A stretch of 64,000 nucleotides of DNA, taken from positions 3,522-67,521 of the forward strand of contig JBDTLP010000009.1 of the NCBI GenBank assembly GCA_039934735.1. The letters are read 5' to 3'. Below the pieces are notes generated by a model, which searched no databases, was not told the DNA's origin, and worked only from the letters and a program-made list of their open reading frames with translations. This stretch comes from Ferruginibacter sp. GTDB taxonomy: Bacteria > Bacteroidota > Bacteroidia > Chitinophagales > Chitinophagaceae. Shown piece by piece: positions 20,288 to 60,699 of the stretch. The first letter of the stretch is position 1, and each line of letters opens with the position of its first letter. The translations under genes were made by a program, and so were the position numbers.

Positions 20288-20389
20288 TTTAGAAGGTTTA
20301 GGAGTTTAGAAGATCATTATAAAACTGTCGACTATAAAAAATAATTATCTGCTTGTTGGTTATTTTCTAAACTTATAAACTTCTAAACC
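20288..20389. repeat. Short-period-repeat hairpin (arms tttagaaggtttaggagtttagaag / ttctaaacttataaacttctaaacc)
   Basis: Imperfect inverted repeat between the GT-C and GT2 genes. The arms are built from an ~8-nt GTTTAGAA-type period. Confidence 0.65.
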
Positions 20390-20447
20390 ATGAAGTTTGC
20401 GCTAGAAAGTGCTTACTAATTACTAAAAGCTTAATATCTTTAAATGC

Positions 20448-21197
20448 ATGTTCCAGAATAAAAAGATCGTAGTTGTTCTTCCGGCTTATAATGCAGCACT
20501 TACACTTGAACGTACGTATGCAGAAATTCCGCATGATATCGTAGATGAAGTTGTACTAGTAGATGATGCCAGCAGTGACCAGACATTGGAGATAGCCAGT
20601 CGGCTTGGTATCAAACATCTTATTCGCCACGAAAAAAATAAAGGCTATGGCGGCAATCAAAAAACATGTTACAACAAAGCCATTGAGTTGGGCGCTGATA
20701 TTGTTATCATGCTACATCCCGATTACCAGTACACGCCCAAACTGATTCCTGCTATGGCCACGTTGATCAGTAGCGGCTTATATCCCGTGGTACTCGGCTC
20801 CCGCATTCTTGGTAAGGGAGCATTAAGAGGTGGAATGCCTTTTCATAAATTTATTTCAAACAGGATACTCACCTTCATTGAAAATATTCTGTTGAACGAA
20901 AAGCTTTCTGAATATCATACAGGCTACCGGGCTTATTCAAGAGAAGTACTTGAAACGATCAACTATCCCGCTAACTCTGATAATTTTGTTTTTGATAACC
21001 AGGTGCTTTCGCAAATTGTTTACCACCGGTTTCCCATAGCCGAAATTACCTGCCCCACAAAATATTTTGAAGAAGCTTCTTCAATAAATTTATCCAACAG
21101 TATTACTTATGGAATGGGCGTATTGAAAGTGAGTATACTTCACCGGATGCAGCGGTGGGGGATGGTGAATTTGGAAGTGTATAAGAAAAGGTTGTGA
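20448..21197 (+). CDS. Family 2 glycosyltransferase (polyprenyl-phosphate sugar synthase-like)
   Basis: VVLPAYNAA, VDDASSD and HPDYQY motifs in a GT-A fold. 249 aa, of the type related to Dpm1/GtrB. Confidence 0.85.
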   Translation: MFQNKKIVVVLPAYNAALTLERTYAEIPHDIVDEVVLVDDASSDQTLEIASRLGIKHLIRHEKNKGYGGNQKTCYNKAIELGADIVIMLHPDYQYTPKLIPAMATLISSGLYPVVLGSRILGKGALRGGMPFHKFISNRILTFIENILLNEKLSEYHTGYRAYSREVLETINYPANSDNFVFDNQVLSQIVYHRFPIAEITCPTKYFEEASSINLSNSITYGMGVLKVSILHRMQRWGMVNLEVYKKRL

Positions 21198-21266
21198 GTT
21201 ATGAGTTATGAGTTGTGAGTTGTGAGTTGTGAGTTGTGAGTTGTGAGTTGTGAGTTGTGAGTTGTG
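21191..21266. repeat. (GAGTTGT)n heptamer array, ~11 units, beginning in the GT2 stop codon
   Basis: gttgtgagttatgagttatgagttgtgag...; the GT2 stop TGA (21195-21197) is the first TGA of the array. Confidence 0.9.
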
Positions 21267-21349
21267 TTTAAAATAACAGGAAAGTTAGGTTATTTCCTCA
21301 TGTTTTTTTTGAAGGGCTTTATTAGTTTTGGGTAACAAAATTTATAAAG

Positions 21350-21715
21350 ATGGGTGACTCTAATAGTGTTATAGAAAAGAAATCATACTTTTTTGCTTTG
21401 CAGATAATTAAGTTATACAAATATCTTAGCACTGAGAAAAAAGATTATACATTATCAAAACAAATCTTACGGGCAGGTACATCTATTGGCGCTAACATTG
21501 TAGAGGCATTATCTGCTGAATCGAAACGTGATTTTGTACATAAATTAGGAATAGCTCAAAAAGAGATTAAAGAGACATCTTACTGGTTGAATTTATTATT
21601 GGATAGTGAATATATTTCAAAAGAAAGGTTCACTGAATTAATAAAACTTTGTGATGAACTGTATAGAATTTTAACGGCTATCATACTTACAACAAAACAG
21701 CGATACCTTAAATGA
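21350..21715 (+). CDS. Four-helix-bundle protein (TIGR02436 / 23S rRNA intervening-sequence protein family)
   Basis: 121 aa. KSYFFALQIIKLYKYL...ILRAGTSIGANIVEA...DFVHKLGIAQKEIKETSYWL is characteristic of the family. Confidence 0.85.
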   Translation: MGDSNSVIEKKSYFFALQIIKLYKYLSTEKKDYTLSKQILRAGTSIGANIVEALSAESKRDFVHKLGIAQKEIKETSYWLNLLLDSEYISKERFTELIKLCDELYRILTAIILTTKQRYLK

Positions 21716-21732
21716 GTTGTGAGTTGTGAGTT
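21713..21732. repeat. Second short (GAGTTGT)n block, beginning in the stop codon of the four-helix-bundle gene
   Basis: tgagttgtgagttgtgagtt is a direct repeat of the array at 21191-21266. Confidence 0.85.
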
Positions 21733-21781
21733 TGTCCTTTCAGCATAAAAAAATCTTCCATGCTATGATCATTATAGCTCT

Positions 21782-21980
21782 ATCAATTATAAAAAATACC
21801 GCAGCCTATCTTGGTTGAAAAAATCTTCTCTTGTAATAAACATACTCTCAACTCACCATTCACCACTCAATTAAGTCCTAATCAATTATCAAAAAAACAC
21901 CACAGCCTTTCCAATTTGAAAAAATCTTTTCTTGTAATAAACACACTCACAATTCACCACTCACAATTCACCACTCAATT
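21782..21980. repeat. Two tandem ~95-bp units, each ending in a C-rich arm complementary to (GAGTTGT)n
   Basis: Unit 1 (21782-21872) and unit 2 (21881-21980) both begin atcaattat..aaaaaatctt(c/t)t..cttgtaataaaca. They end ctcaactcaccattcaccactcaatt and cactcacaattcaccactcacaattcaccactcaatt respectively. Unit 2 overlaps the stop of the cyclase gene. Confidence 0.8.
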
Positions 21981-23957
21981 CAATTCCTTGTCCACAAAAT
22001 ACATATCAATCTCCCCAATATTTTTCGCAAATATTTTACCACGATGGGTGCAGGCGTATTGGTGTTTTATCAATTCATAAGTAGCTTCTGAAATATTTAC
22101 ACGGCCTGCTTCGCCATTGCTTTCCATACGGCTGGCAACATTTACAGTGCCTCCCCAGATATCATAAGCGTATTTCTTTTTGCCCACCACACCCGCTACA
22201 AGAGGCCCTGTATTTACGCCTATTCGTATATCCCATGGCGGTAGGTTCTCTGAAACTCTTTTTTCATTTCTATCTTTAATGAATTCCTGTATTTCCAGGC
22301 TTGCTTTTATAATATTGATAATATGAGAATCATCAATTCTTGGTATCCCGCCTGCACACATGTATGAATCACCGATGGTCTTTATTTTTTCAAGATTGTA
22401 TTTTTCAATGATATCATCAAAAGCAACAAAACATTCATTCAGTTCGGTAACTACTTCCTGGGGAGAAAGTTCATCTGCCAGTTTTGAGAAGCTTTTTATA
22501 TCGGTAAATAGAACCGAAGCTCTTTCATAATACCTTGCTGTAGCAACACCATGTTTTTGAAGTTCCTGTGCTACATCAGCAGGAAGAATATTTAATAAAA
22601 GTGTTTCAATTTCTGTTTTTTGTTCGTCAAGTATTTTATTTGTTTTTAGTTTGTTGCGGTAGTTCCTGTAAATAATAACAGCAATGATCATAGCTAGTGT
22701 AAGTCCCCCGATCAACGCATTTCTAGTAAGCTTTTGTCTTTTGATATTAACTTCCTGTAGTGCTTTGTCTTTCGTTAAAAGGTTGATCTCCCCCTGTTTT
22801 TTTTCAATATCAAATTCGAATTGAAGCTTGTCTAATTTTTTATCAGAGCCATTGCTATATAAGCTGTCTTTGATACTAGATAGTAATTGTTCATATCTAT
22901 ATGCATTCACAAAATCTTTCTGGTCCGCGTATGTTTTTGCAAGACCAACATAAACATCTTTAATTAAACTTTTGGCACCAATGTCAACACCAAGTGACTC
23001 TGCATCGGTGTAAAATTGAAGCGCATTCTTTTTATCTCCCTGTTGATAATAAGTATCTCCCAATTCTTTCAATGATTTTGTCATATCAAGTCTGGCATCA
23101 AGAGTTTTAGCACTATTGTATGCATCATGCAGGTACTGCAGTGCCAGCTCATACTCATTTTTTTTGGCGTATAATTTCCCGAGATTCATCAATGCATACG
23201 GATAACTATCTGATCCCTCGTATGCTTTGCGGGATTTGCGGAAATTAATAAGGGCTGAATCAAGGGCAGAGGCTGAATCAATAGATGACTTAGCTTTCAA
23301 CATATACATTTCTCCAAGGTTGGCGGTACTTGTACCAATGAGATAATCATCTTTTATTTCTTCTGCAAGCGGCAGAGCCATCAGATAATATTTTACCGCT
23401 TTATCGATGTTCTCATTGGTTGGGATAATGACAGCCTTATTTGAATAAACAGAACCAATATTCAACAGGGCTGTAGCAGTTCTTAACTTATCACCAATTT
23501 CTTCCGATAGTTTGAGTGATCTCAGGTAATAATCAAGGGCCTTGTTGTCATCAGATATATCAAAATAAACAGAGCCTATATTACTGAGAATATTGCTTGA
23601 CCCTTTTTTATCACCAAGGGAATCAAATACGGCGAGGGACTGATTGTAATTTTCTAAGGAAAGCGGGTAATTGCTCTGCATATAATTAGCGATACCAATG
23701 TTCTTAAATGCATATGCAAGCCCTGGTTTAAAATCTATCTTTTCGGAAAGGTTCCTGGCCTGTGTTGCATATTTGATTGATTCATTTGGAGCAGAACTAA
23801 AAAAACGCTTACTGATGCTTAATAATGTATTTACCTTAAAACTATCTTCTTTCCCGGATGCAACGAGTTTTTTCATACTGTCTAACTGAGCATCCTGCGA
23901 CCAACAAAATAAAGGAATAAAATAAATGAAGAAAAGGTAAGTTATTTTGGCGGTCAT
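21975..23957 (-). CDS. TPR-repeat sensor adenylate/guanylate cyclase (class III)
   Basis: 660 aa: signal peptide, ~8 TPR repeats, one TM helix, then the catalytic domain (ASVLFTDIKSFS...IKTIGDSYMCAGG...WGGTVNVASRMES). Confidence 0.85.
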   Translation of the reverse strand: MTAKITYLFFIYFIPLFCWSQDAQLDSMKKLVASGKEDSFKVNTLLSISKRFFSSAPNESIKYATQARNLSEKIDFKPGLAYAFKNIGIANYMQSNYPLSLENYNQSLAVFDSLGDKKGSSNILSNIGSVYFDISDDNKALDYYLRSLKLSEEIGDKLRTATALLNIGSVYSNKAVIIPTNENIDKAVKYYLMALPLAEEIKDDYLIGTSTANLGEMYMLKAKSSIDSASALDSALINFRKSRKAYEGSDSYPYALMNLGKLYAKKNEYELALQYLHDAYNSAKTLDARLDMTKSLKELGDTYYQQGDKKNALQFYTDAESLGVDIGAKSLIKDVYVGLAKTYADQKDFVNAYRYEQLLSSIKDSLYSNGSDKKLDKLQFEFDIEKKQGEINLLTKDKALQEVNIKRQKLTRNALIGGLTLAMIIAVIIYRNYRNKLKTNKILDEQKTEIETLLLNILPADVAQELQKHGVATARYYERASVLFTDIKSFSKLADELSPQEVVTELNECFVAFDDIIEKYNLEKIKTIGDSYMCAGGIPRIDDSHIINIIKASLEIQEFIKDRNEKRVSENLPPWDIRIGVNTGPLVAGVVGKKKYAYDIWGGTVNVASRMESNGEAGRVNISEATYELIKHQYACTHRGKIFAKNIGEIDMYFVDKELN

Positions 23958-24009
23958 TTTTCTGATTTATGCTATTGGCGACCAAATATACAAAGTTTCA
24001 AAGGTTGAC

Positions 24010-24092
24010 AAGGTTGAAAAGTTGAAAGGGTTGAAAAAGTTAATAAAGGAATAACCTTCTAACTTTTTCAACCCTTTCAACTTTTCAACCTT
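24010..24092. repeat. Perfect 33-bp-stem hairpin built from GGTTGAAA-type repeats
   Basis: aaggttgaaaagttgaaagggttgaaaaagtta (24010-24042) is the exact reverse complement of 24060-24092, with a 17-nt loop. It ends 3 nt from the stop codon of the 1914-aa gene. Confidence 0.9.
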
Positions 24093-24095
24093 TTG

Positions 24096-27000
24096 TTACT
24101 GCTTCAAAATCCTAAACTGTTTATAAGCATTGTCAACCTTTACTTTAATATAATAAACGCCCGAACTTAGTTTTGATAGATCGAGTTCAATACTATTGCC
24201 CGAAAGCGATGTAGCTCTTGAAACGGGCCATGTTCTTCCTGTCATATCAATAACTGCCACGCCCTTCGTAGATACCACGGCACCATTTACAGTTATCCTT
24301 ACTTTATTTGTTACCGGGTTAGGGTAAACGTTAGTATTGCCGGAAAACAGGTCATTAGCTGATGATTGTGTTGCAGCCTTAATATCTTTTTTCCCGATGT
24401 CAGGTGTTGATGATACTCCTCGTGTATAAATATTAGTAGCACAAGATGGCGAAGATGGAGTGGCTGTTACATAAACCGTGGTCTTTGTATTTACACAATA
24501 AGTAGCAACTGTCCATTTTAGGCTCGTACCATTGAAGAATACATCGAAGGTGGTTTTGCCAGGCTGGAATACTACAGGGATTGTACCACTCCACATTCCG
24601 GCTGGGGTGAGATTATTATCTGTTCCAACAGCTACATAAACAGGGGTTGCATTACCGTTAGTCGCTTCAAAATGCGCTACATAAGAATACCCTGATGGAT
24701 GATTGGTGAGCACATCTTTACATCTTAGAGCAAGCGTTATGTTTTTTGCACCCGTTCCTTTCGGATTGATGTATAATTTACCGGGCATATAGCTGATCGT
24801 ATAATAATTCCTGGTTGGGCTTGACAAAACAAGATTAGAAGGAGTGATCGTATATACACCCGCAGCACCAGAACAGGAAGGGCTGATAGTATATGTAGGG
24901 CCGGATGTACATTTAGCCTGGTCATTGTTTACATAACCCGTGATGGTAGATGTATAGGTTGGTAATGAACTTCCTTTGAAAATTACTTTATCGTCAGCCG
25001 TTACAATTAAATTCCTCTTCCCAATCGTTAGTGTTCCATTTGTATTAACGATGTTGTAATTATTGGAAGAGCCTCCGGTTAGTGTGATTGGGTAAGTTCC
25101 AACGCCGGATGTAACGGTAGCCGTAGTCGCAGCAACTGGTTGCGTAATATTTGCAGGCCCGTCGCCATTTACAAACCCGGTATATGTAATCCGGAAAACA
25201 GGATTTGCATTTCCATAGATACAGCTTGTGTCAACAGCTCTTGCCGTTAATGCAGCTTTGCCAACATTAAGTGCACCACTGGTATAATCAATGGTATAGT
25301 TAGCAGGTTGAATTAATGAAGCCGCTGGTACAATAATAAAAGTTCCGGAAGGAATATTTGTATTCGGTATTGTTAAGTTGGAAGCATTTAACAATGAGTA
25401 TGTAAGCGGCCCTGTAAATACATTACTTGCATCATCCTGGAATTTATATCCCGTAACAGTAGATGTGAATGCTGGAAGTGCAGCTCCATAGATCATGTTT
25501 GCATTGCCGGTAGTTACAGTAAGATGAGCAGCTGAGATGGTTAAATTTCCAAGATGATAACTCACATCAAAATTTTCTGAAACGAATGCGGCAGGAACAA
25601 TCTTATGAAGTCCCGATGTCATTCCCGTAATCAAATTAATAGGAATGAAATCAACAAGCGTATCATTGGCAGGTGCATATACATCTGTTGAATCAATGAT
25701 CACTACAAGATCCTGGTTGGTTTCATCATTTACAGTACTTGCATTTACAAACGGTGAATTCAATGCCAATGCTCTTGTGTTTACAACAGCCCCGCCATTT
25801 ACTGCTGCTCTTACATTTACGGCTGCACGTGTGTTCACCGCGGCTCTTACATTTACCAATGTCGTTACTGCAGAATCCTGCTGGTAATTATAAATTGATT
25901 TTGGCGAAAGATCAACCACATAAGTTGTATCAAACACTACTGAATTTACAGCCGCTCTTACATTTACTGCCGCTCTCACATTCACTGCCGCTCTTACACT
26001 AACGAGGAAACTTAGATCAGTAAGATCAGAAGTTTGTAAAGTTCTTCCATCAACAACTGTTTGATCATCTACCAATGCAACTGCGTTGGATACTTTTTGT
26101 GTATGAGCTGTTTTTAAATTAGCAAAGAATGCAGCTTTATCTTCATCGGCAATATTTGCGTCATTATAATCATAATTGAATTGAAGATTAGTAATCTTAT
26201 CACCATATTCTAAAGTTGTATCTCTTGATGTGATGGTTACTGGTAATTTATTTATTGTTAGTAATCCATTTACAAAAGTATAATCGTACAATTCTGGTAA
26301 CCCGGCATCAAAAGGATCATTCATATCAAGCACACGCATGGCAGGTTTAATTGCATAGATACCTGTATTGCTGAAATTGGTTGCTGTAGTTGTAAAACTG
26401 ATCGGGTCGAGGCCAAGTTGCAGTAATGAAAATCCGGAGTTTTCCAAAGGTACATTATCAACAGTAACGGTTGCGGTTAACGCAGGAATTTTTTCTCCAT
26501 ATTTTTTTACTTTGTTCTCAGCTGTAATTACAACGTGTTTTTTAACTGGTGTAAAGAAATATAAAGAATTTGAAAGTCCGCCATCTGTACCATTTACGGA
26601 TACCGGAGCTGTATATACCTGTATAGCAGGATTACCGGTGAATGCAGGAATGGTTGCAGAAAGGGTAGTTGCATTAACAACAGTTGTTGGTAATGGATTG
26701 CCCCTGAAATTAATTACCGATTGTCCATCAAGATAATTTCCCTGTACAGTTAAAACTACGGGTGCAGGTCCAGGCGTTGTAGGAGGAACCAGTAACTGCA
26801 GATCATTGATCACAGGTGTTGGTGTTGCAAACGTACGCATCGCTGTATTTGCCTGGATAAAACCATAGCCTGTATTGAAATCAAAACCAGTAGCATCCAT
26901 ATCAAGTGCTGTAGTTTCCATCAATGTTCTTAATGCGGCAGGAGTAATGGTTTGGTTTGCAAATTTTCTTTTTCCTTCTATCAATAAAGCAGCAACAGCA

Positions 27001-32983: not shown

Positions 32984-33113
32984 AAGAGTTAATAATGTTA
33001 ATAGAGTTAATAGAGTTAATAAAGTTGATAAAGTTGATAGAGTTAATAAAGTTGGCGAAGTTGATAAAGTTTATACAGGAGACATCCTTGTTAACTGTAT
33101 CAACTTCGTCAAC
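32984..33113. repeat. 9-nt-period (AGAGTTAAT/AAAGTTGAT) array plus inverted partner, filling the whole intergenic gap
   Basis: Starts immediately after the stop at 32983. The distal part gttggcgaagttgataaagttta pairs with ttaactgtatcaacttcgtcaac (33091-33113). It ends 2 nt before ATG 33116. Confidence 0.8.
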
Positions 33114-33115
33114 AT

Positions 33116-33595
33116 ATGAACTTCGTGAAGATCATCGACCATAAAAAAAGTTATATGCTGATTATAGAAAAAATATTATTACTAAAGAACTCCGACATTT
33201 TTAAAAACTGTAGCGAAGTGGATCTTATTGAGATCGCTTCTATTTGTGAAGAAAGCCAGGTGGATAAGGATATTATGTTGTTTAAAAAGGGAGATGCCGG
33301 TAACTGTATGTATTTTATCTATTCCGGGAATGTGTCTATACATGATGAAGAGCACCAGTTGGCTACACTTTCTGATAATGAAATATTTGGAGAACTATCA
33401 TTGCTTGATTCGGAAACAAGATCAGCAAGCGTAACAACTTTAACTGATTGTATCTTTTTAAAAATTGAACAAGAAGCTTTTTATGATGTTGTTGCCATCA
33501 ACACAGATATCTTAAAAGGGATTATGAGGACATTGTGCAGGCGGTTGAGGGAACAGGATCGTATAACGGTTGAGATGAAACGAAAAGTTTCTTAA
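33116..33595 (+). CDS. Cyclic-nucleotide-binding domain protein (no DNA-binding domain)
   Basis: FKKGDAGNCMYFIYSGNVSI...IFGELSLLDSETRSASVTT is the canonical CAP/PKA-type cNMP-binding signature (FGE...RSA). Confidence 0.8.
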   Translation: MNFVKIIDHKKSYMLIIEKILLLKNSDIFKNCSEVDLIEIASICEESQVDKDIMLFKKGDAGNCMYFIYSGNVSIHDEEHQLATLSDNEIFGELSLLDSETRSASVTTLTDCIFLKIEQEAFYDVVAINTDILKGIMRTLCRRLREQDRITVEMKRKVS

Positions 33596-33759
33596 GTGTA
33601 TGATGTATGATTTAAGATATAAGATTTAAGATGTATGATTTAAGATGTATGATGTAAGATGTATGATGTAAGATGTATGATGTATGATGTATGATGTAAG
33701 ATTTGTGAGAAGGTTCTAAATTGAAAGACATCTTAAATCTTAGATCTTCAATCTTACAT
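33596..33759. repeat. ~15-unit heptamer array (GATGTAA/GATGTAT/GATTTAA) plus inverted arm
   Basis: The left arm (33596-33704) starts right after the stop codon. The right arm acatcttaaatcttagatcttcaatcttacat (33728-33759) ends 1 nt before the stop of the convergent HD gene. Confidence 0.85.
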
Positions 33760-33760
33760 G

Positions 33761-37419: not shown

Positions 37420-37425
37420 TTCAAC

Positions 37426-42950: not shown

Positions 42951-43018
42951 AAATGTCTGATGTCTGATGTTTTGATGTCTGAATTTGGCTATGTCCGACA
43001 TGCAAAAATCAGACATTT
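42951..43018. repeat. (ATGTCTG)n-type hairpin between divergent genes
   Basis: aaatgtctgatgtctgatgttttgatgtctga pairs with ..tcagacattt. It includes the local palindrome atgtccgacat. Confidence 0.7.
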
Positions 43019-43436: not shown

Positions 43437-43469
43437 CCAATTGACAATTAACAATTGATAATTGACAAT
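43437..43469. repeat. CAATTGA/CAATTAA heptamer array
   Basis: ccaattgacaattaacaattgataattgacaat starts 3 nt after the stop at 43434. The units are self-complementary (CAATTG). Confidence 0.7.
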
Positions 43470-45545: not shown

Positions 45546-45646
45546 AGAATTTAGAATTTAGAATTATGAATGTAGAATGTTTCGTAACGAATTGCATTCA
45601 TAATTCATTAATTCTGCATTCATAATTCTACATTCATAATTCTAAA
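45546..45646. repeat. (AGAATTT)-type heptamer hairpin filling the carboxylase-rnhA gap
   Basis: The left arm agaatttagaatttagaattatgaatgtagaatg starts the base after the stop codon. The right arm gcattcataattc...ctacattcataattctaaatt ends 2 nt before the rnhA start. Confidence 0.85.
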
Positions 45647-45648
45647 TT

Positions 45649-46107
45649 TTGAGCAAAATTACCATATACACAGACGGTTCCTCACGCGGCAATCCTGGGC
45701 CCGGCGGCTATGGCGCTATATTGATGTATGGGGAACACAGGAAGGAAATTTCAAAAGGCTTTCGACGTACAACCAATAACAGGATGGAGTTGATGGCAGT
45801 TATTGAAGGATTGAAACTGATTAAAAAACCGGAGCTCCCTGTTGTTATTTATTCCGATAGCCAGTATGTTGTAAGAGCCATTGAAGAAGGTTGGTTGAAG
45901 AACTGGATTAAGACAAATTTTAAAGGTGGCAAAAAGAACAGAGACCTTTGGGAAGAATATTATGATCTCTCTCAAAAAATGAATGTAAAAATGGTTTGGG
46001 TAAAGGGGCATGCTACCAATCCTTTTAATAATCGTTGTGATGAATTGGCGACAAGTGCTGCGGATGGAAAGGACTTAATTGTTGACGAAGGATATGAGGA
46101 AATATAA
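45649..46107 (+). CDS. rnhA: Ribonuclease HI
   Basis: DGSSRGNPGPGGYG, TNNRMEL, DSQY and GH..NPFNNRCDELA give the complete RNase H catalytic DEDD context. Confidence 0.9.
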   Translation: MSKITIYTDGSSRGNPGPGGYGAILMYGEHRKEISKGFRRTTNNRMELMAVIEGLKLIKKPELPVVIYSDSQYVVRAIEEGWLKNWIKTNFKGGKKNRDLWEEYYDLSQKMNVKMVWVKGHATNPFNNRCDELATSAADGKDLIVDEGYEEI

Positions 46108-46247
46108 AATGTAAAATGTAAAATGTAAAATGTAAAATGTAAAATGTAAAATGTAAAATGTAGGAAGATATAATTGGTGAAGATACTATCGATTATAATA
46201 AAGCTTAACTTTTACATTTTGCATTCAATATTTTGCATTTTACATTT
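46105..46247. repeat. (AAATGTA)x8 array overlapping the rnhA stop, plus inverted arm
   Basis: The rnhA stop TAA (46105-46107) is the first unit. Eight perfect units run to 46162. The right arm tttacattttgcattcaatattttgcattttacattt is at 46211-46247. Confidence 0.9.
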
Positions 46248-46295
46248 AAAGAAAAAGCCACTCATAAGAGTGGCTTAAAAAAAAATAATTTATTC

Positions 46296-46954: not shown

Positions 46955-47053
46955 ATGTCTGATGTATGATGTTGGATGTATGATTTGAAATACAGTCTCT
47001 TTTCAAAAATCATACATCATACATCTAACACCATACATCTTACATCATACATC
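46955..47053. repeat. (GATGTAT)-type heptamer hairpin upstream of the YraN-like gene
   Basis: atgtctgatgtatgatgttggatgtatgattt pairs with aaatcatacatcatacatctaacaccatacatcttacatcatacatc. Confidence 0.8.
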
Positions 47054-48008: not shown

Positions 48009-48908
48009 ATGTGGGAAGCATACAAAAAAGGGTATAAAGCATGGTTGCAACTGGAGAAATCGCTTGCAGATAATTCCGTACAATCTTATTTGCAGGACAT
48101 CGACAAGTTCACCGGTTACCTGCAGTTAAAGAGTGATATGAAAACGCCGGGGGATATCGTACTTAAAGATCTTGAGAAGTTTATAGAATGGATACACGAA
48201 CTTGGTTTAACCGCATCATCACAGGCAAGGATCATATCTGGCTTGCGTAGCTTTTATAAATATTGTTTACTGGAACAGATCACCGTTATTGATCCAACTG
48301 TATTAATGGAAGCGCCCAAACTAAAAAGAACGTTGCCGGATATCCTGGCATTTGAAGAAATAGAAAGGATCATCTCAGCTATTGACTTAAGTAAACCAGA
48401 AGGTGGCAGGAATAAAGCAATATTTGAAACCATGTACAGTTGCGGATTAAGGGTGACTGAAACGGTAAATTTAAAAATCAGTTGCCTTTATCTTGATGTA
48501 GGTTTTATTAAAGTGATTGGAAAAGGGGATAAAGAAAGATTGGTGCCCATTGGGACAGATGCCATTAAATTTATTAATATTTATAAAAATAATATTCGCA
48601 TTCACATACCAATTGCAGCAGGGGAGGAAGACATTCTTTTCTTAAACAGGAGAGGGAGCAGGCTGAGCCGGGTTATGATCTTTTTAATTTTGAAAGAACT
48701 TGTAAGAAAAGCGGGTATCAAAAAAAATATTTCACCACATACATTTCGTCATTCATTTGCCACGCATCTTGTAGAGGGAGGCGCCGATCTAAGAGCGGTA
48801 CAGGAAATGCTTGGCCATGAAAGTATTACTACCACGGAAATATATACGCATCTTGACAGGGAGTTTTTGAGGAACACGTTGCAGCAGTTTCATCCGGCGT
48901 TTAAGTGA
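48009..48908 (+). CDS. xerD: Tyrosine recombinase XerD
   Basis: 299 aa. GLRVTE (Arg) and HTFRHSFATHLVEGGADLRAVQEMLGHESITTTEIYTH (HxxR, H, Y). Confidence 0.9.
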   Translation: MWEAYKKGYKAWLQLEKSLADNSVQSYLQDIDKFTGYLQLKSDMKTPGDIVLKDLEKFIEWIHELGLTASSQARIISGLRSFYKYCLLEQITVIDPTVLMEAPKLKRTLPDILAFEEIERIISAIDLSKPEGGRNKAIFETMYSCGLRVTETVNLKISCLYLDVGFIKVIGKGDKERLVPIGTDAIKFINIYKNNIRIHIPIAAGEEDILFLNRRGSRLSRVMIFLILKELVRKAGIKKNISPHTFRHSFATHLVEGGADLRAVQEMLGHESITTTEIYTHLDREFLRNTLQQFHPAFK

Positions 48909-49087
48909 GCTGTTAGCTATAAGCTTTAAGCTTTAAGCTATAAGCTGGCCGTGATGATAGAAGTTTATTTTTTTAGGAAACTGTATAATATTTTGAAGTT
49001 ATTGGTAATTTAACCGTTTAGATTTCCTGAAGAATAGGGGAATATCAAATTTAAAAAAAACGACTTACAGCTTATAGCTTGAAGCTA
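48908..49087. repeat. (AGCTATA/AGCTTTA) heptamer hairpin bridging two convergent stop codons
   Basis: The left arm (48908-48948) starts in the xerD TGA. The right arm cttacagcttatagcttgaagcta (49064-49087) contains the TAG of the GT2 gene. The loop is ~115 nt. Confidence 0.8.
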
Positions 49088-51320: not shown

Positions 51321-51386
51321 TTAGGGGCTCTGAGAAATTGGGGCCTTTTTTTATATGTATGATGTAAGATTTAAGATGTAAGATTT
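51309..51386 (+). repeat. Left copy of a ~75-bp direct repeat flanking the helicase gene
   Basis: ataaatag(ctag)ttaggggctctgagaaattggggccttttttt-atatgtatgatgtaagatttaagatgtaagattt is ~85 percent identical to 56477-56548. It begins in the last codons of ytxJ. Confidence 0.8.
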
Positions 51387-56216: not shown

Positions 56217-56476
56217 TCTTTTATTTACTGATTATGATTTATTATTAAGTTCTTAAGACAAGATAATAAAACAAGATGGTTTTTTCTATTCGAGATTAAT
56301 CATTTTGCTCTTTCACATCATAGGGTTGGAACATGAAAAGTATTTGTTTTTTGCAAAGATTACAAACAGGTAGCATTTTTTAAAAGCCAGGAGTAAATGA
56401 AACCACAAAGCGTAGCAGGATTGGAAAACAAAATTACTATTGCCAATTGGCTGGCAGGTAACAAGATTGAAAACTT

Positions 56477-56548
56477 ATAAATAGTTAGGAGCGCTGAGAG
56501 ATCGGGGCCTTTTTACATGTAGGATTTAAGATGTAAGATTTAAGATTT
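56477..56548 (+). repeat. Right copy of the direct repeat flanking the helicase gene
   Basis: ataaatagttaggagcgctgagagatcggggccttttt-acatgtaggatttaagatgtaagatttaagattt. Confidence 0.8.
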
Positions 56549-56620
56549 AAGATATGTAAATCATTACAAAGCCCAAATCTTAAATCTTACATTTTAAATC
56601 TTACATCTTAGATCATACAT
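56521..56620. repeat. (GATTTAA/GATGTAA) heptamer hairpin abutting the galM stop
   Basis: The left arm aggatttaagatgtaagatttaagatttaagat pairs with the right arm aaatcttaaatcttacattttaaatcttacatcttagatc, which ends 1-2 nt before the galM stop (56622). Confidence 0.85.
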
Positions 56621-56621
56621 T

Positions 56622-57626
56622 TTACAAAGCTGAAATCTTATAAATAGTAACCTGCCTGTATGCTTCTCCAGGCTTTAATAACGTATTTGGAAATGATGGT
56701 TCATTTGGACTGTTGGGATAATGCTGCGCTTCCAAGCATAGCCCAAATTGATTACCCTGCTCTTGATTTCCTGAATAAAATTGAACAGCAGGTTCGGTTG
56801 TGAACATTTGCATGAAGCGGCCACTTACAGGTTCATATAAATTAGCAGCTATCGTAAGACCTGTTGAATGATCATCTTTTCGAATGATCATATTATGATC
56901 GTATCCTCCAATAGCAGCAATATCTTTTCCTGTTTTTTTTGTTGATGTAAAATCAAGTGCGGTATTTTTTACGGAAGCAATTTCGCCGGTAGGGATGAGC
57001 GTTGCATCTGAAACGGTATAGCTATCTGCAAACAACTGTAATTCATGATCAAGAATGGGTGTATTGCTATTTCCAGATAAATTAAAATAACAATGATTGG
57101 TAAAATTAACTGATGTTGATTGATCTGTAGTTGCTTTATAATCTATTTTAACTTCGTTATCATCAGTTAGGCTATATATAACCGTTATATTAAGGTTGCC
57201 GGGAAAACCTTCTTCGCCATCTTTGCTTAGGTAAGTTAGTTTTAAACTATTATCGGCTTCATTTGGTTCGGCATTCCACCATGCTTTATCAAAACCTTTG
57301 TTGCCGCCGTGTAAACTATGCTCACCATGATTTTTTGCAAGTTTGTATTCTTTCCCATCAATAGTAAAAATTCCATGAGCGATCCTGTTACAATAACGGC
57401 CAACAATGCAGCCCATGTAAGGATTGCTGCTGTTTAAATAATCGTCAAGATTATCAAAGCCATTAACCACATTGGCAAACATATTATTCTTATCCGCAGT
57501 AATGATCTTTGTTACTGTAGCGCCATAATTAATAATGGAAACCTGCATACCGCTGGCATTTTGTAATGTGTATTCTGTAACAGGTTTGTTTTCGAAATTC
57601 CCAAAGGGCTTTTTTGAAATACTCAT
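56622..57626 (-). CDS. galM: Aldose 1-epimerase (galactose mutarotase)
   Basis: 334 aa. HSLHGGNKGFDKAWW and the C-terminal E..HYPNSPN motifs are typical of GalM. Confidence 0.9.
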   Translation of the reverse strand: MSISKKPFGNFENKPVTEYTLQNASGMQVSIINYGATVTKIITADKNNMFANVVNGFDNLDDYLNSSNPYMGCIVGRYCNRIAHGIFTIDGKEYKLAKNHGEHSLHGGNKGFDKAWWNAEPNEADNSLKLTYLSKDGEEGFPGNLNITVIYSLTDDNEVKIDYKATTDQSTSVNFTNHCYFNLSGNSNTPILDHELQLFADSYTVSDATLIPTGEIASVKNTALDFTSTKKTGKDIAAIGGYDHNMIIRKDDHSTGLTIAANLYEPVSGRFMQMFTTEPAVQFYSGNQEQGNQFGLCLEAQHYPNSPNEPSFPNTLLKPGEAYRQVTIYKISAL

Positions 57627-57714: not shown

Positions 57715-59400
57715 TTACCAAAACAAACTATACAATGCCAATAAAATTCCACATATGATCAATGCGCCAACTACAAAAGATGTGTCTACTTTAAACATTG
57801 TTTTATCAATTTCCAATCCATTAGGTTTAATGCCTTTTTTATTTTCAATTTTACTGATGATGAACATTCCGGTGATACAAAGAACAAAGATGATGGCCAT
57901 CCTGTCGAGGAAAGGAATAATATAAACGCCTTTATCAAGTGTTGAGAAACCTGAACTTGCCAGGAAAGAAAGATCCATAAAGCCAGGAAGGAACTTGAAG
58001 AACAATGCGAATAAGAATCCGCCGATCATTGCAAACAAAGCAGCGTTCGATGTCGTTTTTTTCCAGAAGAAACCAAGGATGAACATCGCAAAAATACCGG
58101 GTGAAACAAATCCTGTGTATTCCTGTATGTATTGAAATCCTTGTTTTCCTTCACCCATTAATTTTTCTCCGACAACAAATGCTAACAAAACTGCAATGAG
58201 CACAGAAACAATAACGGTTATTTTTCCTACGCTGACAAGTTTTTTATCATCCGCATTTTTGTTGATCGCTTTTTTATAGATGTCCAATGAAAATATCGTT
58301 GCGATACTATTTGCTTTACCTGCCAGTGATGCAACGATCGCTGCGGTCAACGCTGCAAATGATAATCCTTTTAAACCAACAGGTAATAAATTCAATAAAG
58401 ATGGATATGCTTTATTCACATCAGTGATACCTTTTGAATCGAGCATTTCTGTATGGAACATTCCTTTTTGATACAATACATAAGCTGCAATACCAGGCAA
58501 TACAACGATCACCGGCATCAGTAATTTTAAGAATGCTGCAAACAACAATCCTTTTCGTGCTGTTGGCAGGTTAGCGCCTAATGCCCTCTGTGTAATGTAT
58601 TGATTACATCCCCAGTAATTAAGATTGGCGATCCACAATCCACCCAACAAAACAGACAGGCCTGGGAGATCGCCATAACTGCTATTGTCTTTTTTTAATA
58701 TCATATGAAAATGATCATTGGCCTGTGTTGTCAATAAATTAAATCCATTTAATAATCCTGTTTGGCCTGATTGTTTTGCAACTAAATTCAAAGCAATATA
58801 TGTTGCAACCAATCCTCCCAATACTAAAAAGAAAACCTGTATCACATCTGTATAGCCAATTACCTTCATGCCACCCAATGTGATGATGACTGCAAAAATG
58901 GCTAAGAGGCCAATGCACAAACCAATATCCAATCCTGATATGCCATGAATGGCCAATGCTCCCAAATAAAGAATAGACATCAGGTTAACGACAACGTATA
59001 GCAGCAACCAGAACACAGCCATGATCATAGCCACTGTTCCATTATAACGCTGACTTAAAAACTGTGGCATCGTGAATATCTTATTCTTAAGATAAACTGG
59101 CATAAAGAAGACCGCAACGAGAATCAATGTCAATGCAGCCATCCATTCGTAAGACGATATGGCGAGTCCCATTTTAAAACCGCTTCCGCTCATACCTATA
59201 AATTGTTCAGCAGATATATTGGATGCAATCAATGATGCTCCAATTGCCCACCAGGTAAGAGAACCTTCTGCTAAAAAATAATCATGGGAAGCAGATGTAG
59301 TTAGTTTGTTCTTGCGGCGATATACCCAGTAACCGTAGCCAGAAACTACGATGAAGTAAAAAAGAAAAACGAGGTAGTCACTTGTTGTTAATGCATTCAT
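57715..59400 (-). CDS. Sodium:solute symporter (SGLT-type sugar transporter)
   Basis: 561 aa with 13-14 TM helices. WWAIGASLIASNISAEQFIGMSGSG is the SSF signature. It sits between galK and galM. Confidence 0.9.
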   Translation of the reverse strand: MNALTTSDYLVFLFYFIVVSGYGYWVYRRKNKLTTSASHDYFLAEGSLTWWAIGASLIASNISAEQFIGMSGSGFKMGLAISSYEWMAALTLILVAVFFMPVYLKNKIFTMPQFLSQRYNGTVAMIMAVFWLLLYVVVNLMSILYLGALAIHGISGLDIGLCIGLLAIFAVIITLGGMKVIGYTDVIQVFFLVLGGLVATYIALNLVAKQSGQTGLLNGFNLLTTQANDHFHMILKKDNSSYGDLPGLSVLLGGLWIANLNYWGCNQYITQRALGANLPTARKGLLFAAFLKLLMPVIVVLPGIAAYVLYQKGMFHTEMLDSKGITDVNKAYPSLLNLLPVGLKGLSFAALTAAIVASLAGKANSIATIFSLDIYKKAINKNADDKKLVSVGKITVIVSVLIAVLLAFVVGEKLMGEGKQGFQYIQEYTGFVSPGIFAMFILGFFWKKTTSNAALFAMIGGFLFALFFKFLPGFMDLSFLASSGFSTLDKGVYIIPFLDRMAIIFVLCITGMFIISKIENKKGIKPNGLEIDKTMFKVDTSFVVGALIICGILLALYSLFW

Positions 59401-59434
59401 GATGGCATTGGTTTATTAAAATAATAACATTGGT

Positions 59435-60586
59435 TTATAATTCACAGCAGCTTGTTCCATTTTCAATTACAGCAATATAACTTGTTAGTGGAAGTTTCAT
59501 TGCTGCTTCATATGCAATGCTTACCTCTTTAATTAATCTTTCAATCGCATCTTCCTGTACAATGTTGATGGTACAACCACCAAAGCCGCCACCCATCATT
59601 CTTGCGCCAACAACGCCAGGAATTAGTTTCACATGATCTACAAGAAAATCAAGTTCTTTACAACTCACTTCATATTCAGTGCTCAGTCCCATATGTGCCT
59701 GGTACATTTTATTTCCAAGTGCAACAATATTTCCATTCTTCAGATCTTCACATGCAGCAAGCAGGCGCATGTTTTCTTTTATCACATACTTGCAACGCTG
59801 GTGAATTAGTGGATGTTCAAAAGCAACATATTTATCAAGCATGTCCATACTTACATCTCTCAGGCTTTTTACTTCAGGATGAAATGCTTTGATGATGGCA
59901 ACAGCTTCTTCACATTGTTGCCTGCGGATATTATATTCAGAAGAAGCAAGATTGTGTTTTACATTGGTATTTAGCAATACAATTTTATAACCATCCAGTT
60001 TAAAAGGAATGTATTCGTATTTCAATGAACGGCAATCTAATTTTATTACATGATCTTTTTTTCCGAGCATACTTGCAAACTGGTCCATAATGCCACAATT
60101 CACGCCAGCGAATACATGCTCTGCTTTTTGAGCCATGTAACTCAGTTTTATTCTATCAAAACCAAGTTCAAATATTTCATTCAATGCAAATGCAGTTGCA
60201 CATTCAACAGCAGCAGAGGAGGAGAGGCCGGCGCCAATGGGCACATCACCGTCAACCAATAAATTAAACCCTGTTAAAACAGCTCCTGCTTTTTGCAACT
60301 GATCAACTACGCCTAAAATATAATTGGCCCATTGCACAGGTGATTTTTTTACATCTTCTACATTGATTGAAAAATCTTCATTAAAATCTGTTGCATATAG
60401 ATGGATGATGTTGTCGTTCCTTTTACTAACAGCAACGTAAATATTTTTATCAATAGCTCCGGGCAAAACAAATCCTTCATTGTAATCTGTATGTTCGCCA
60501 ATGATATTCACTCTTCCCGGGGAGCGGAATACAGAAGAAGTTGTACCGTATTTTTCTAAGAACACTTTTGTTATCTTTTGTATCAT
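59435..60586 (-). CDS. galK: Galactokinase
   Basis: GRVNIIGEHTDYNEGFVLP (galactokinase signature) and PIGAGLSSSAA (GHMP kinase motif). Confidence 0.92.
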   Translation of the reverse strand: MIQKITKVFLEKYGTTSSVFRSPGRVNIIGEHTDYNEGFVLPGAIDKNIYVAVSKRNDNIIHLYATDFNEDFSINVEDVKKSPVQWANYILGVVDQLQKAGAVLTGFNLLVDGDVPIGAGLSSSAAVECATAFALNEIFELGFDRIKLSYMAQKAEHVFAGVNCGIMDQFASMLGKKDHVIKLDCRSLKYEYIPFKLDGYKIVLLNTNVKHNLASSEYNIRRQQCEEAVAIIKAFHPEVKSLRDVSMDMLDKYVAFEHPLIHQRCKYVIKENMRLLAACEDLKNGNIVALGNKMYQAHMGLSTEYEVSCKELDFLVDHVKLIPGVVGARMMGGGFGGCTINIVQEDAIERLIKEVSIAYEAAMKLPLTSYIAVIENGTSCCEL

Positions 60587-60608
60587 TTTAATAGTAAGTT
60601 GCTTTTTT

Positions 60609-60699
60609 GATATCAGATTTCAGAAATCAGACATCAGCTTTTAATAAAATAAGTAAAACCTCAAGAACATCTGAAATCTGACTTCTGAAATCTGATATC
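60609..60699. repeat. (ATCAGAN) heptamer hairpin between the GH2-GH53 gene and galK
   Basis: gatatcagatttcagaaatcagacatcag pairs with atctgaaatctgacttctgaaatctgatatc. Here the TGA-bearing arm is the distal one. Confidence 0.85.

What the first reader, a model, noticed from the sequence alone, without database searches (positions are those of the whole stretch)
20288..60699. Pervasive family of gene-end hairpins whose arms are short-period (mostly 7-nt) tandem repeats, with a different repeat word at each locus
At least 14 intergenic sites share one architecture: a tandem array of a 7-9-nt word, a loop, then the reverse-complement array.

Sites: 20288-20389, 21191-21266 (+21843-21980), 24010-24092, 32984-33113, 33596-33759, 42951-43018, 43437-43469, 45546-45646, 46105-46247, 46955-47053, 48908-49087, 51355-51386, 56521-56620, 60609-60699.

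The words differ from site to site (GAGTTGT, AAATGTA, GATGTAA/GATGTAT, AGCTATA/AGCTTTA, AGAATTT, ATCAGAN, CAATTGA, GGTTGAAA, AGAGTTAAT), so this is not one mobile sequence.

The arrays start at, or overlap, stop codons. The GT2 TGA at 21195, the rnhA TAA at 46105, the xerD TGA at 48906 and the TAG at 49085 are all part of the repeat. Others begin 0-3 nt after the stop.

In most sites the first arm is C-poor and carries TGA, TAA or TAG once per unit. This holds reading from either strand, because the structure is symmetric. With a 7-nt period the stop rotates through all three frames. 60609-60699 has the opposite polarity, and two arrays have 8-9-nt periods, so this three-frame-stop idea is only a hypothesis.

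The sites could be this lineage's terminators, translation barriers or recombination sites. I am not aware of a description of them.
Basis: partly seen in the sequence, partly recalled or inferred. Interest (0 to 1): 0.7.

Follow-up and report, generated by a model that had tools for sequence, protein, structure and literature searches.

The report
Heptamer-repeat hairpins filling gene gaps
The gaps between genes in this Ferruginibacter (Bacteroidota) genome are often filled by fast-changing DNA hairpins whose two arms are complementary 7-letter microsatellites, and the same structure wraps the enigmatic '23S rRNA intervening-sequence protein' genes across bacteria, so they look like gene-less relatives of those elements rather than the lineage's terminators.

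Summary
The window has 31 short-period arrays (23 of period 7), against 3.4 (0.5) in shuffles. Eleven to twelve of the 14 listed sites are hairpins whose arms are complementary arrays; 43437 and 51355 are single arrays. The window comes from a Ferruginibacter MAG. In 1.33 Mb from 80 Chitinophagaceae relatives, period 7 also dominates and 25 more such hairpins occur, with 166 different words among 212 arrays.

They do not look like terminators. Arms are 29% GC, none of 36 has a T-tract, and canonical terminators sit beside some of them. They occur equally in convergent, tandem and divergent spacers. Orthologous spacers in relatives are empty, hold plain hairpins, or hold array hairpins with other words.

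Hairpin edges lie a median of 1 nt from stop codons. At the GT2 gene the array itself encodes the last residues and the stop in four genomes.

The main new finding concerns PF05635/TIGR02436 genes, the family of the 23S rRNA IVS protein. Of 86 such genes, 68 are bracketed by inverted heptamer arrays, against 1.5% of control genes. One copy lies in the window, at 21350-21715.

Best reading: DNA-level, rapidly turning-over IVS-type stem-loops that would be RNase III-type substrates when transcribed. Their function is unproven.

The parts
20288..20389 (.). Hairpin with 8-nt-period arms (TTTAGAAG / CTAAACTT), lying between the stop of the TPR gene (20220) and the GT2 start (20448). This is the weakest member of the set.
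   Evidence: mfe -23.9, z -3.4; partner score 24 against a null maximum of 22. L178 has a different-word 8-mer hairpin in the same spacer; L179-L181 have none.
21191..21266 (.). 5' arm: GAGTTGT/GTTGTGA x10.9. It starts 4 nt inside the GT2 ORF and supplies its last codon and the TGA stop (21195-21197).
21350..21715 (+). Gene for a PF05635 / TIGR02436 'four helix bundle protein' (the 23S rRNA IVS protein family, related to Avd), sitting inside the hairpin.
   Evidence: E 1.6e-30; TIGR02436, E 1.3e-33; PDB 2RLD, E 2.7e-31; an identical protein is annotated in a Ferruginibacter MAG.
21713..21732 (.). TGAGTTG x2.9, a direct copy of the 5'-arm word that overlaps the stop of the IVP gene. The ORF therefore appears to split the 5' arm.
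21841..21986 (.). 3' arm units (ACTCACC/CACTCAC/CAATTCAC) in two blocks carried by a 101-nt tandem duplication (21782-21964). The arm overlaps the stop of the cyclase gene (21975-21977, minus strand).
   Evidence: (64 pairs with 21191-21266).
23992..24094 (.). Hairpin with arms of 8-9-nt units (AAGGTTGAA), about 37 bp, 1 nt from the stop of the minus-strand gene 24096-29840.
   Evidence: mfe -54.7, z -13.0. Relatives have plain hairpins at this position.
32984..33122 (.). Hairpin with a 9-nt-unit array (AGTTAATAA x9.9) and a short inverted arm. It fills the spacer from the stop at 32983 to the start at 33116.
   Evidence: (z -6.9).
33596..33759 (.). Hairpin with very unequal arms, (GATGTAW)x15 against x4, between convergent stops at 33595 and 33761.
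42951..43018 (.). Hairpin (ATGTCTG x4.1) in a divergent spacer, about 28 nt from the likely start of the minus-strand gene (42923) and 36 nt from the start at 43054.
   Evidence: z -6.1.
43437..43469 (.). Single array CAATTGA x4.6 with no inverted partner. It is not a two-arm hairpin.
   Evidence: z -1.1.
45546..45648 (.). Hairpin (AGAATTT/ATGAATGT units) that fills the whole spacer from the pccB stop (45545) to the TTG start of rnhA (45649). Its words match those of the arms of orthologous IVP cassettes.
   Evidence: z -5.8; absent from most relatives; 60-75% of its 9-mers are shared with IVP arms.
46100..46247 (.). Hairpin (AAATGTA x9 against TTTTACA x5.4) that includes the rnhA TAA stop. 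A canonical terminator for the minus-strand gene follows at 46255-46276.
   Evidence: z -11.5; (the same word occurs at the same spacer only in L017).
46955..47053 (.). Hairpin (ATGTATG/ATCATAC) in a divergent spacer, between the DUF6580 start (46883, minus strand) and the likely yraN start (about 47057).
   Evidence: (z -7.3).
48908..49087 (.). Hairpin (AGCTWTA units) with a loop of about 120 nt, between convergent genes. The xerD TGA and the GT2b TAG lie at or inside the arms.
   Evidence: (z -4.7).
51355..51386 (.). Single array ATGTAAG x4.3, directly after the canonical terminator at 51323-51348. It has no inverted partner.
56517..56626 (.). Hairpin (GATTTAA/GATGTAA units, 33 contiguous bp) whose edge overlaps the stop of the minus-strand gene at 56622. 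A terminator-like hairpin lies upstream at about 56490-56515.
   Evidence: mfe -49.0, z -10.0.
60609..60699 (.). Hairpin (ATCAGAA/ATCTGAA), the one site with reversed or absent G/C polarity, 7 nt from the stop at 60707 (minus strand).
   Evidence: z -8.1.
16651..16677 (.). Outside the given range: AAGGTTGT x3.2, overlapping the stop of ORF 13621-16677. It has no partner, and a canonical terminator follows at about 16696-16725.

Best explanation
What they are. These are a lineage-wide class of short-lived DNA palindromes whose two arms are complementary microsatellites, mostly of 7-nt units. They have the same architecture that brackets PF05635/TIGR02436 'four-helix-bundle' genes, the gene family first found inside 23S rRNA intervening sequences. 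I therefore read them as IVS-type stem-loops resident in mRNA spacers. One copy carries the ORF (21191-21986); the rest are ORF-less.

How they arise (inferred). They are made and remodelled at the DNA level, by slippage in the 7-nt register, with the two arms being arrays of the same word. RNA-level selection is not what keeps them complementary. They grow until they meet coding or translation-initiation constraints. That is why they sit flush with stop codons, or overwrite them, but stay about 30 nt from start codons.

What they do when transcribed (inferred). They must fold into 20-45-bp A/U-rich duplexes without a U-tract. Such a duplex is an RNase III-type substrate and a barrier to 3' exonucleases, as shown for IVS stems. 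It is not an intrinsic terminator. Any benefit to the host is secondary.

Shown here: the architecture, the excess over chance, the family-wide spread, the rapid turnover, the overlap with stop codons, the lack of terminator features, and the association with PF05635 genes.

Inferred only: the DNA-level mechanism and RNase III processing.
For: Excess over chance and pairing.

Family-wide spread: period 7 accounts for 141 of 277 arrays, and there are 36 hairpins in 1.4 Mb.

PF05635 link:
- 68 of 86 IVP genes have flanking inverted arms, with best period 7 in 62 and 64 of the 68 (random 28-mers give 13%).
- Only 6 of 400 ordinary genes pass the same test.
- Array density is 4.98 per kb beside IVP ORFs against 0.38 per kb elsewhere.
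- The orthologous dihydropyrimidinase-IVP-CN_hydrolase cassette has arms TAGAATT-ATGAGTT-ATGAATT, flush with the neighbouring stop and start, in 9 loci, with one change on both arms.
- In the window, the GAGTTGT arms enclose the IVP ORF.
- In Coxiella, the IVS stem carries tandem GACAGAT units and is cut there by RNase III (PMC4990558).

Turnover:
- Four orthologous spacers across about 40 relatives are mostly empty, or hold hairpins with other words.
- The GT2/cyclase spacer holds an array hairpin with a different word in each of 4 close relatives.

Overwritten gene ends: the GT2 C-terminal tails RL*, RILNAEF*, KQLTSNS* and RIYN* are encoded by the arrays.

Not terminators.

DNA-level complementarity: G.U-type against A.C-type mismatches are 54 against 61 in IVP cassettes and 9 against 13 in solo hairpins.
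Against: - There are no transcript data, so RNase III cleavage is an analogy only.
- Only 1 IVP gene was found against 36 hairpins in 1.4 Mb of Chitinophagaceae.
- No IVP remnants were detected in hairpin loops.
- No IVP gene sits at an orthologous spacer in any relative.
- Sharing of 9-mers between solo arms and IVP arms is only modestly above a period-preserving control: 23.7% against a mean of 12.6% and a maximum of 25.4%.
- The GT2/cyclase spacer keeps a hairpin in all 4 close relatives while its sequence changes. This is also what selection for structure would produce.
- Unit order in the two arms is not mirror-symmetric beyond chance (1 of 15 at p<=0.05), so continuous arm-to-arm copying is not supported.
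- The strong G>C polarity of the 5' arm in every gene context (29 of 33) is unexplained by this model.
Confidence: 0.5

Rival explanations
1. They are selected RNA elements of this lineage: bidirectional factor-independent terminators, or 3'-UTR/intercistronic stabilisers, in which structure is conserved while sequence is free to change.
For: - Hairpin edges lie a median of 1 nt from stop codons.
- Eleven of 244 convergent spacers are occupied, the highest rate of the three classes.
- The GT2/cyclase spacer has a hairpin in all 4 close relatives despite different words, and the arms changed on both sides between W and L178.
- In relatives the cyclase/big-protein spacer carries plain hairpins where W has an array hairpin.
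Against: - None of 36 is followed by a T-tract; arm GC is 29%.
- Canonical terminators sit next to some of them.
- Occupancy does not differ between convergent, tandem and divergent spacers (p=0.2), and 8 hairpins lie between two gene starts.
- Most orthologous spacers in relatives lack them.
- There is no excess of G.U over A.C mismatches on the sense strand.
Confidence: 0.15
2. They are non-autonomous mobile hairpins, comparable to MITEs or REPINs. They would be copied to new spacers and into the loops of other hairpins by a trans-acting enzyme, with PF05635 ORFs as occasional cargo or helper.
For: - One word family recurs at 5 sites in the window.
- GTTTGGG arrays occur at three or more sites in L009. 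They are also nested in the loops of other hairpins in L003 and L178.
- Hairpin density differs about 9-fold between genomes: 11 in 64 kb against 25 in 1334 kb.
- The IVP ORF in the window appears to split a pre-existing arm.
- A Y1 transposase gene lies near one IVP cassette, in L089.
Against: - There are 166 words in 212 arrays, and loops are unrelated between sites.
- No conserved termini or target duplications are visible.
- Filled spacers leave no trace of the ancestral spacer flanking an insert.
- No candidate mobilising gene lies in the window.
Confidence: 0.15
3. They are translation barriers. The 5' arm is selected to carry a stop in every frame, so that ribosomes entering from either gene are released.
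For: - First-arm stop density is 0.093, against 0.055 in second arms and 0.063 in intergenic background.
- The arrays really do supply the stop, plus 1-7 tail residues, of GT2 and of the cyclase in several genomes.
- The same property was noted for TAACTGA repeats (PMC4679880).
Against: - Stop density equals the composition-matched shuffle (0.091).
- All three frames are closed in only 13 and 9 of 36 first arms, against 9.8 expected.
- The same polarity holds in divergent spacers, where no ORF runs into the arm (6 of 7).
Confidence: 0.05
4. They are scars of break repair. Both 3' ends of a double-strand break are extended by reiterative synthesis of a 7-nt unit and then joined head to head, as in a telomere-telomere fusion. 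Whatever lies at the junction (a loop, another hairpin, an ORF) is trapped.
For: - This model would account for the otherwise unexplained polarity, with the G-rich strand running 5'->3' towards the centre on both strands (29 of 33).
- It would account for the arms being 'the same word' without mirror-ordered variants, and for DNA-level complementarity.
- It would account for very unequal arm lengths (15 against 4 units at 33596).
- It would account for nested hairpins.
Against: - This is purely inferential, and no enzyme has been identified.
- 20 of 66 IVP cassettes have the opposite polarity.
- Slippage plus selection could give the same picture.
Confidence: 0.08
5. They are structure-specific recombination sites, comparable to integron attC sites or to Xer sites.
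For: - attC sites are also hairpins of variable sequence at the 3' ends of cassettes.
- A xerD gene abuts the hairpin at 48908.
Against: - The xerD synteny is conserved in relatives that have no hairpin.
- No integrase is associated with the sites, and no conserved core is visible.
- The flanking genes are ordinary syntenic housekeeping genes, not cassettes.
Confidence: 0.03

Closest known systems
23S rRNA intervening sequences (IVS) carrying the S23p / PF05635 ORF (Leptospira, Coxiella, Xanthomonas, Brucella)
   Same: - A long stem made by terminal inverted repeats encloses a PF05635 ORF.
- The Coxiella stem contains tandem heptamers (GACAGAT) whose number varies between strains, and RNase III cuts at the first repeat (PMC4990558).
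- The window element at 21191-21986 has exactly this layout.
   Different: - The elements here lie in mRNA spacers between protein genes, not in helix 9, 25 or 45 of 23S rRNA.
- Almost all copies lack the ORF.
- The arms are longer arrays with a different word at each locus.
- Processing has not been tested.
Heptanucleotide long simple-sequence repeats: LSSRs (Mrazek et al. 2007, as summarised in PMC4679880), TAACTGA repeats of Beggiatoaceae, Cyanobacteria and Bacteroidetes (PMC4679880), and cyanobacterial STRR / Nostoc TTTTGAA repeats (bioRxiv 10.1101/2022.06.06.494920)
   Same: - 7-nt period, intergenic location and copy-number variation in 7-nt steps.
- Stops in all frames were noted for TAACTGA.
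- Presence in some Bacteroidetes.
   Different: - Those are direct arrays of one or a few dominant words, mostly just upstream of start codons. Only one inverted case was reported among 170 sets.
- Here the defining feature is the paired inverted array, the words are many, and the arrays sit flush with stop codons.
REP / BIME / REPIN extragenic palindromes
   Same: - Intergenic hairpins, often after stop codons and between convergent genes.
- Neutral to mildly regulatory (mRNA 3' protection).
- Their loops can receive insertions.
   Different: - REPs of one genome share a conserved sequence recognised by a RAYT transposase and have no internal tandem period.
- Here there is no conserved sequence and no RAYT in the window.
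Intrinsic (bidirectional) terminators
   Same: A hairpin directly downstream of stop codons, often shared by convergent genes.
   Different: - Stems are 20-45 bp with 29% GC, and there is no U-tract.
- They also occur between divergently transcribed genes and directly before start codons.
Intercistronic RNase III sites of phage T7 early mRNA (from general knowledge)
   Same: Long stem-loops that fill the gap between cistrons. This is what the pccB-rnhA hairpin and the operon IVP cassettes would work like.
   Different: T7 sites are conserved and have specific internal loops. Nothing has been tested here.

Membership tests
Intrinsic terminator | Short G+C-rich stem (about 5-12 bp) | tested here: not met
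   Arm GC averages 29%, and stems are 20-45 bp.
Intrinsic terminator | U/T-tract directly after the stem | tested here: not met
   None of 36 hairpins has 7 or more T in the 10 nt after the hairpin. One of 36 has an A-tract before it.
Intrinsic terminator | Location only downstream of genes | tested here: not met
   Eight of 233 divergent spacers are occupied, a rate similar to the other classes. Window sites 42951 and 46955 lie between two gene starts.
IVS element with PF05635 ORF | Terminal inverted repeats form a stem that encloses the ORF | tested here: met
   Met for 21191-21986: 64 pairs enclose the ORF at 21350-21715. Met for 68 of 86 IVP genes elsewhere. The other window hairpins have the stem but no ORF.
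IVS element with PF05635 ORF | Inserted in a 23S rRNA helix | tested here: not met
   All sites lie between protein-coding genes. There are no Rfam hits in the window.
IVS element with PF05635 ORF | Excised by RNase III | not testable with these tools
   This needs RNA 5'/3'-end mapping and an rnc mutant. Stem length of 20 bp or more is compatible.
REP/REPIN | Conserved palindrome sequence shared by the copies within a genome | tested here: not met
   There are 166 canonical units in 212 arrays. In the window there are about 9 unrelated words, plus one family shared by 5 sites.
REP/REPIN | Cognate RAYT (Y1 transposase) gene | tested here: inconclusive
   None among the 40 window ORFs that were scanned. 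The rest of the genome was not available.
Heptanucleotide LSSR / STRR / TAACTGA-type repeats | Head-to-tail arrays of a 7-nt unit in intergenic DNA | tested here: met
   Twenty-three of 31 window arrays and 141 of 277 arrays across relatives have period 7.
Heptanucleotide LSSR / STRR / TAACTGA-type repeats | One or a few dominant words per genome, in direct orientation only | tested here: not met
   There are many words, and 40 of 141 period-7 arrays have an inverted partner within 300 nt.
MITE | Near-identical copies with terminal inverted repeats and target-site duplications | tested here: not met
   Loops and words differ between sites. Filled and empty orthologous spacers show no discrete insert boundary. 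The flank test did detect a true IS, in L076.

The most novel reading that the evidence does not exclude
The hairpins could be products of a dedicated repeat-adding process. In this reading, breaks in intergenic DNA are healed by reiterative 7-nt extension of both 3' ends, possibly by a reverse transcriptase or polymerase working with the Avd-like PF05635 pentamer. The ends are then joined head to head, which traps loops, other hairpins or the PF05635 ORF at the junction. The classical 23S rRNA IVSs would then be only the rRNA-resident tip of a phylum-spanning class of self-renewing 'hairpin microsatellite' elements that also rewrite protein C-termini.
Probability: 0.1. Interest if true: 0.9.

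Novelty: new variant of a known kind. Interest (0 to 1): 0.62.

Why it matters
- It places the long-puzzling 23S rRNA intervening sequences and their S23p/PF05635 ORF in a much wider context. The same heptamer-armed stem-loop wraps most PF05635 genes sampled from metagenomes, and ORF-less copies litter the spacers of some Bacteroidota genomes.
- It shows microsatellite arrays overwriting stop codons and inventing the last 1-7 residues of housekeeping proteins in closely related genomes.
- It matters for annotation, because gene ends, start codons and 'terminators' at these sites can be miscalled.
- It matters for assembly, because contigs carrying PF05635 genes are mostly under 2 kb.
- It gives testable predictions: RNase III cleavage, 7-nt copy-number variation, and the polarity rule. 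Cultured Chitinophagaceae are available, for example Niastella vici (L066 5840-5918).

Tried and rejected
- Rfam gathering scan of the whole window: no family.
- IVP gene remnants in the loops of 36 hairpins (blastx against 120 IVP proteins): nothing better than E=0.03.
- IVP genes in 80 Chitinophagaceae loci: only the window copy. There is none at the orthologous GT2/cyclase spacer of three close relatives.
- Shared neighbours between window genes and the flanks of IVP loci: none.
- Three-frame-stop enrichment beyond composition: absent.
- Wobble signature of RNA-level selection (G.U against A.C mismatches): absent.
- Mirror order of variant units between arms: not beyond permutation.
- Background G/C skew after stop codons as an explanation of the polarity: absent.
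- Terminator features: absent.
- Enrichment in convergent spacers: not significant.
- Sharing of 9-mer vocabulary with IVP arms: only suggestive.
- Literature searches for a prior description of inverted heptamer-array hairpins: related but not equivalent papers only.

Full report
**What is there**

TRF finds 66 rows in the window. Merged, these are 31 arrays of period 5-11, of which 23 have period 7. Thirty dinucleotide shuffles of the window give 3.4 arrays on average, 0.5 of period 7, with a best score of 42 against 163 in the real sequence.

For each array I aligned its reverse complement to the 300 nt on either side and compared the score with 40 random placements. Ten sites have a clear inverted partner. 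Their RNA folds are far more stable than shuffles, with z from -4.7 to -13 for most and stems of 20-45 bp.

- The GAGTTGT array at 21191-21266 has no nearby partner, but it pairs over 64 bp with 21841-21986.
- Site 20288-20389 is a weaker member with an 8-nt period.
- Sites 43437-43469 and 51355-51386 are single arrays, not hairpins.

**Where the window comes from, and how general the pattern is**

The protein encoded at 21350-21715 and the GT2 protein are identical to proteins annotated in a Ferruginibacter sp. MAG, on a 71.5-kb contig. A scan with the carboxyltransferase at 43917-45545 returned 80 Chitinophagaceae loci, 1.33 Mb in all.

- In these loci period 7 again dominates: 141 of 277 arrays.
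- Forty of the 141 period-7 arrays have an inverted partner.
- The pipeline finds 36 array hairpins in total.
- The window is about nine times richer than the average relative: 11 in 64 kb against 25 in 1334 kb.
- Close relatives of the window genome are similarly rich.
- The words are very diverse: 166 canonical units in 212 arrays.

In the window, however, one word family (ATGTAAG/ATGTATG/ATTTAAG/ATGTCTG) recurs at five sites. GTTTGGG-type arrays recur at several sites in L009.

**Context**

Using rough ORF calls, hairpins occupy 11 of 244 convergent spacers, 14 of 621 tandem spacers and 8 of 233 divergent spacers (p=0.2). They are therefore not restricted to gene ends. Window sites 42951 and 46955 lie between two gene starts.

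Where a stop codon flanks a hairpin, the edge is a median of 1 nt away, and 27 of 37 are within 10 nt. Start codons are a median of 31 nt away.

In the GT2 gene the conserved protein ends at ...YKKR. The remaining residues and the stop are encoded by the array itself:

| Genome | C-terminal tail |
|---|---|
| W | RL* |
| L178 | RILNAEF* |
| L179 | KQLTSNS* |
| L181 | RIYN* |

The convergent cyclase shows the same pattern. The arrays therefore grow into, and rewrite, gene ends.

**They do not look like terminators**

- Arm GC is 29%, and none of 36 hairpins is followed by a T-tract.
- Canonical terminators are present beside hairpins at 46255-46276 and 51323-51348, and by eye at about 16696-16725.
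- Four orthologous spacers were compared across about 40 syntenic relatives: pccB-rnhA, rnhA/DUF6580, DUF6580/yraN and xerD/GT2b. Most relatives have short spacers or ordinary terminators. A few have array hairpins with other words. Only L017 shares the AAATGTA word with the window.
- The closest relative, L001, has a plain 55-nt spacer where the window has the hairpin at 45546.

**One spacer keeps a hairpin while the word changes**

The GT2/cyclase spacer holds an array hairpin in all four close relatives, but the words differ:

| Genome | Words |
|---|---|
| W | GAGTTGT |
| L178 | GAGTTCT/GAATTCT, with a second TTTGGGG/CCCCAAA hairpin nested in the loop |
| L179 | AACAATT/AACAAGT |
| L181 | ATAATTG/CAATTGA |

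Between W and L178 the unit changed on both arms.

**The link to PF05635**

The gene at 21350-21715 belongs to PF05635/TIGR02436. Its closest solved structure is 2RLD. The family is related to the Avd accessory protein of diversity-generating retroelements (PMC10053308).

Its closest homologues sit in a conserved operon, dihydropyrimidinase - IVP - CN hydrolase. There the ORF is bracketed by TAGAATT-ATGAGTT-ATGAATT|ATG...TAA|its reverse complement, flush with the neighbouring stop and start. These are the words of the window hairpin at 45546.

I then fetched 80 IVP loci from metagenomes and pooled them with the cassette loci.

- Of 86 testable IVP genes, 68 have flanking inverted arms that beat all shuffles.
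- The best period is 7 in 62 and 64 of those 68, against 13% for random 28-mers.
- The ORF's stop lies in or against the 3' arm in 40 of the 68.
- The same test is positive for 6 of 400 ordinary genes, one of which is a genuine IS with terminal inverted repeats.
- Arrays are 13 times denser within 200 nt of IVP ORFs than elsewhere in the same loci.

In Coxiella, the IVS that carries this ORF has tandem GACAGAT units in its stem. Their number varies between strains, and RNase III cuts at the first repeat (PMC4990558).

I found no paper that generalises this, and none that describes the ORF-less hairpins. Direct heptamer arrays in Bacteroidetes are known (PMC4679880).

**Which came first**

At the GT2/cyclase spacer three close relatives have a hairpin but no IVP gene. 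In the window a direct copy of the arm word follows the IVP stop, as if the ORF split the arm. The hairpin therefore seems older than the ORF at this site. No IVP remnants occur in other loops. Solo hairpins and IVP cassettes are best treated as one structural class; which is parent and which is derivative remains unresolved.

**RNA-level or DNA-level complementarity**

- Sense-strand G.U-type mismatches do not exceed A.C-type: 54 against 61 in IVP cassettes and 9 against 13 in co-directional solo hairpins.
- The order of variant units in the two arms is not mirrored beyond permutation.
- Arm lengths can be very unequal, for example 15 against 4 units at 33596.

Complementarity therefore looks like 'two arrays of one word', maintained or created at the DNA level, and not like a selected RNA helix. 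The RNA would fold all the same.

**Three-frame stops and polarity**

First arms are richer in stop triplets than second arms (0.093 against 0.055). This equals the composition-matched expectation (0.091), and all three frames are closed in only 13 and 9 of 36 arms, against 9.8 expected.

The polarity itself is strong. The 5' arm has G>C in 29 of 33 hairpins, and this holds in every gene context, including divergent spacers. Background composition after stop codons does not explain it. It remains unexplained. It matches what head-to-head joining of two G-strand 3' extensions would give, which I list only as a low-probability novel reading.

**Verdict**

The terminator and translation-barrier readings are not supported.

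The best-supported account is a fast-turnover, DNA-level 'hairpin microsatellite' of the IVS/PF05635 type. It fills unconstrained spacer, overwrites gene ends, and would act on RNA as an RNase III-type stem-loop. The function and the generating mechanism are inferred, not shown.

Noticed in passing
L178 10743-10911: Nested hairpins. A TTTGGGG/TTTGGCG - CCAAACG/CCCCAAA heptamer hairpin sits in the loop of the GAATTCT/GAGTTCT hairpin at the spacer orthologous to the window's IVP cassette. L003 12214-12343 likewise has a GTTTGGY array inside the loop of an AAAAGGTTT hairpin.
   Followed up: partly
L009, minus strand, about 1820, 6809 and 13363: GTTTGGG/GTTTGGC arrays recur at three or more sites within 21 kb. 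They are typically split by a GC-rich GCGCTRCGCGCG core, which suggests that one word family has dispersed within a genome.
   Followed up: partly
window 21782-21964: A 101-nt tandem duplication (1.8 copies, 83% match) that carries the 3'-arm heptamer units of the IVP hairpin.
   Followed up: partly
window 1-6449: A low-GC stretch (31-33%) of small minus-strand ORFs that ends with a tyrosine integrase with an Arm-DNA-binding domain (5169-6449, minus strand). It may be an integrated element. No heptamer arrays occur in the first 16 kb of the window.
   Followed up: no
window 37075-37130 and 37410-37498: Repeats of 26-29-nt period (for example AAGCTTATAATATGGTATTATCAGGTTTA) in the divergent spacer upstream of the ORF at 37510. 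They could be operator-like repeats and are unrelated to the heptamer hairpins.
   Followed up: no
window 45646-45652: rnhA appears to start at a TTG 2 nt after the hairpin. The ATG used in relatives (for example MYTDGS in L001) is absent, as if the hairpin had replaced the original start region.
   Followed up: partly
window 51417-56216 (minus strand): A 1599-aa protein that fuses a DEAD/Helicase_C module with a UvrD-type helicase module.
   Followed up: no
window 56398-56479: A 27-codon ORF (MKPQSVAGLENKITIANWLAGNKIENL*), followed by a terminator-like hairpin whose sequence resembles the brxC terminator at 51323-51348. Both are followed by arrays of the ATGTAAG/ATTTAAG family.
   Followed up: no
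one search hit table (P0002-P0120): Most contigs that carry close homologues of the window IVP gene are only 0.5-2 kb long. This is consistent with the flanking arrays breaking short-read assemblies, so array copy numbers in MAGs may be collapsed.
   Followed up: no
L178 4958-5665, L179 7433-8004, L181 368-929: Three tandem small genes (51-60 aa each, no Pfam hit) are conserved upstream of the TPR-GT2 genes in close relatives. The corresponding window region (about 17.2-18.3 kb) was not examined.
   Followed up: no
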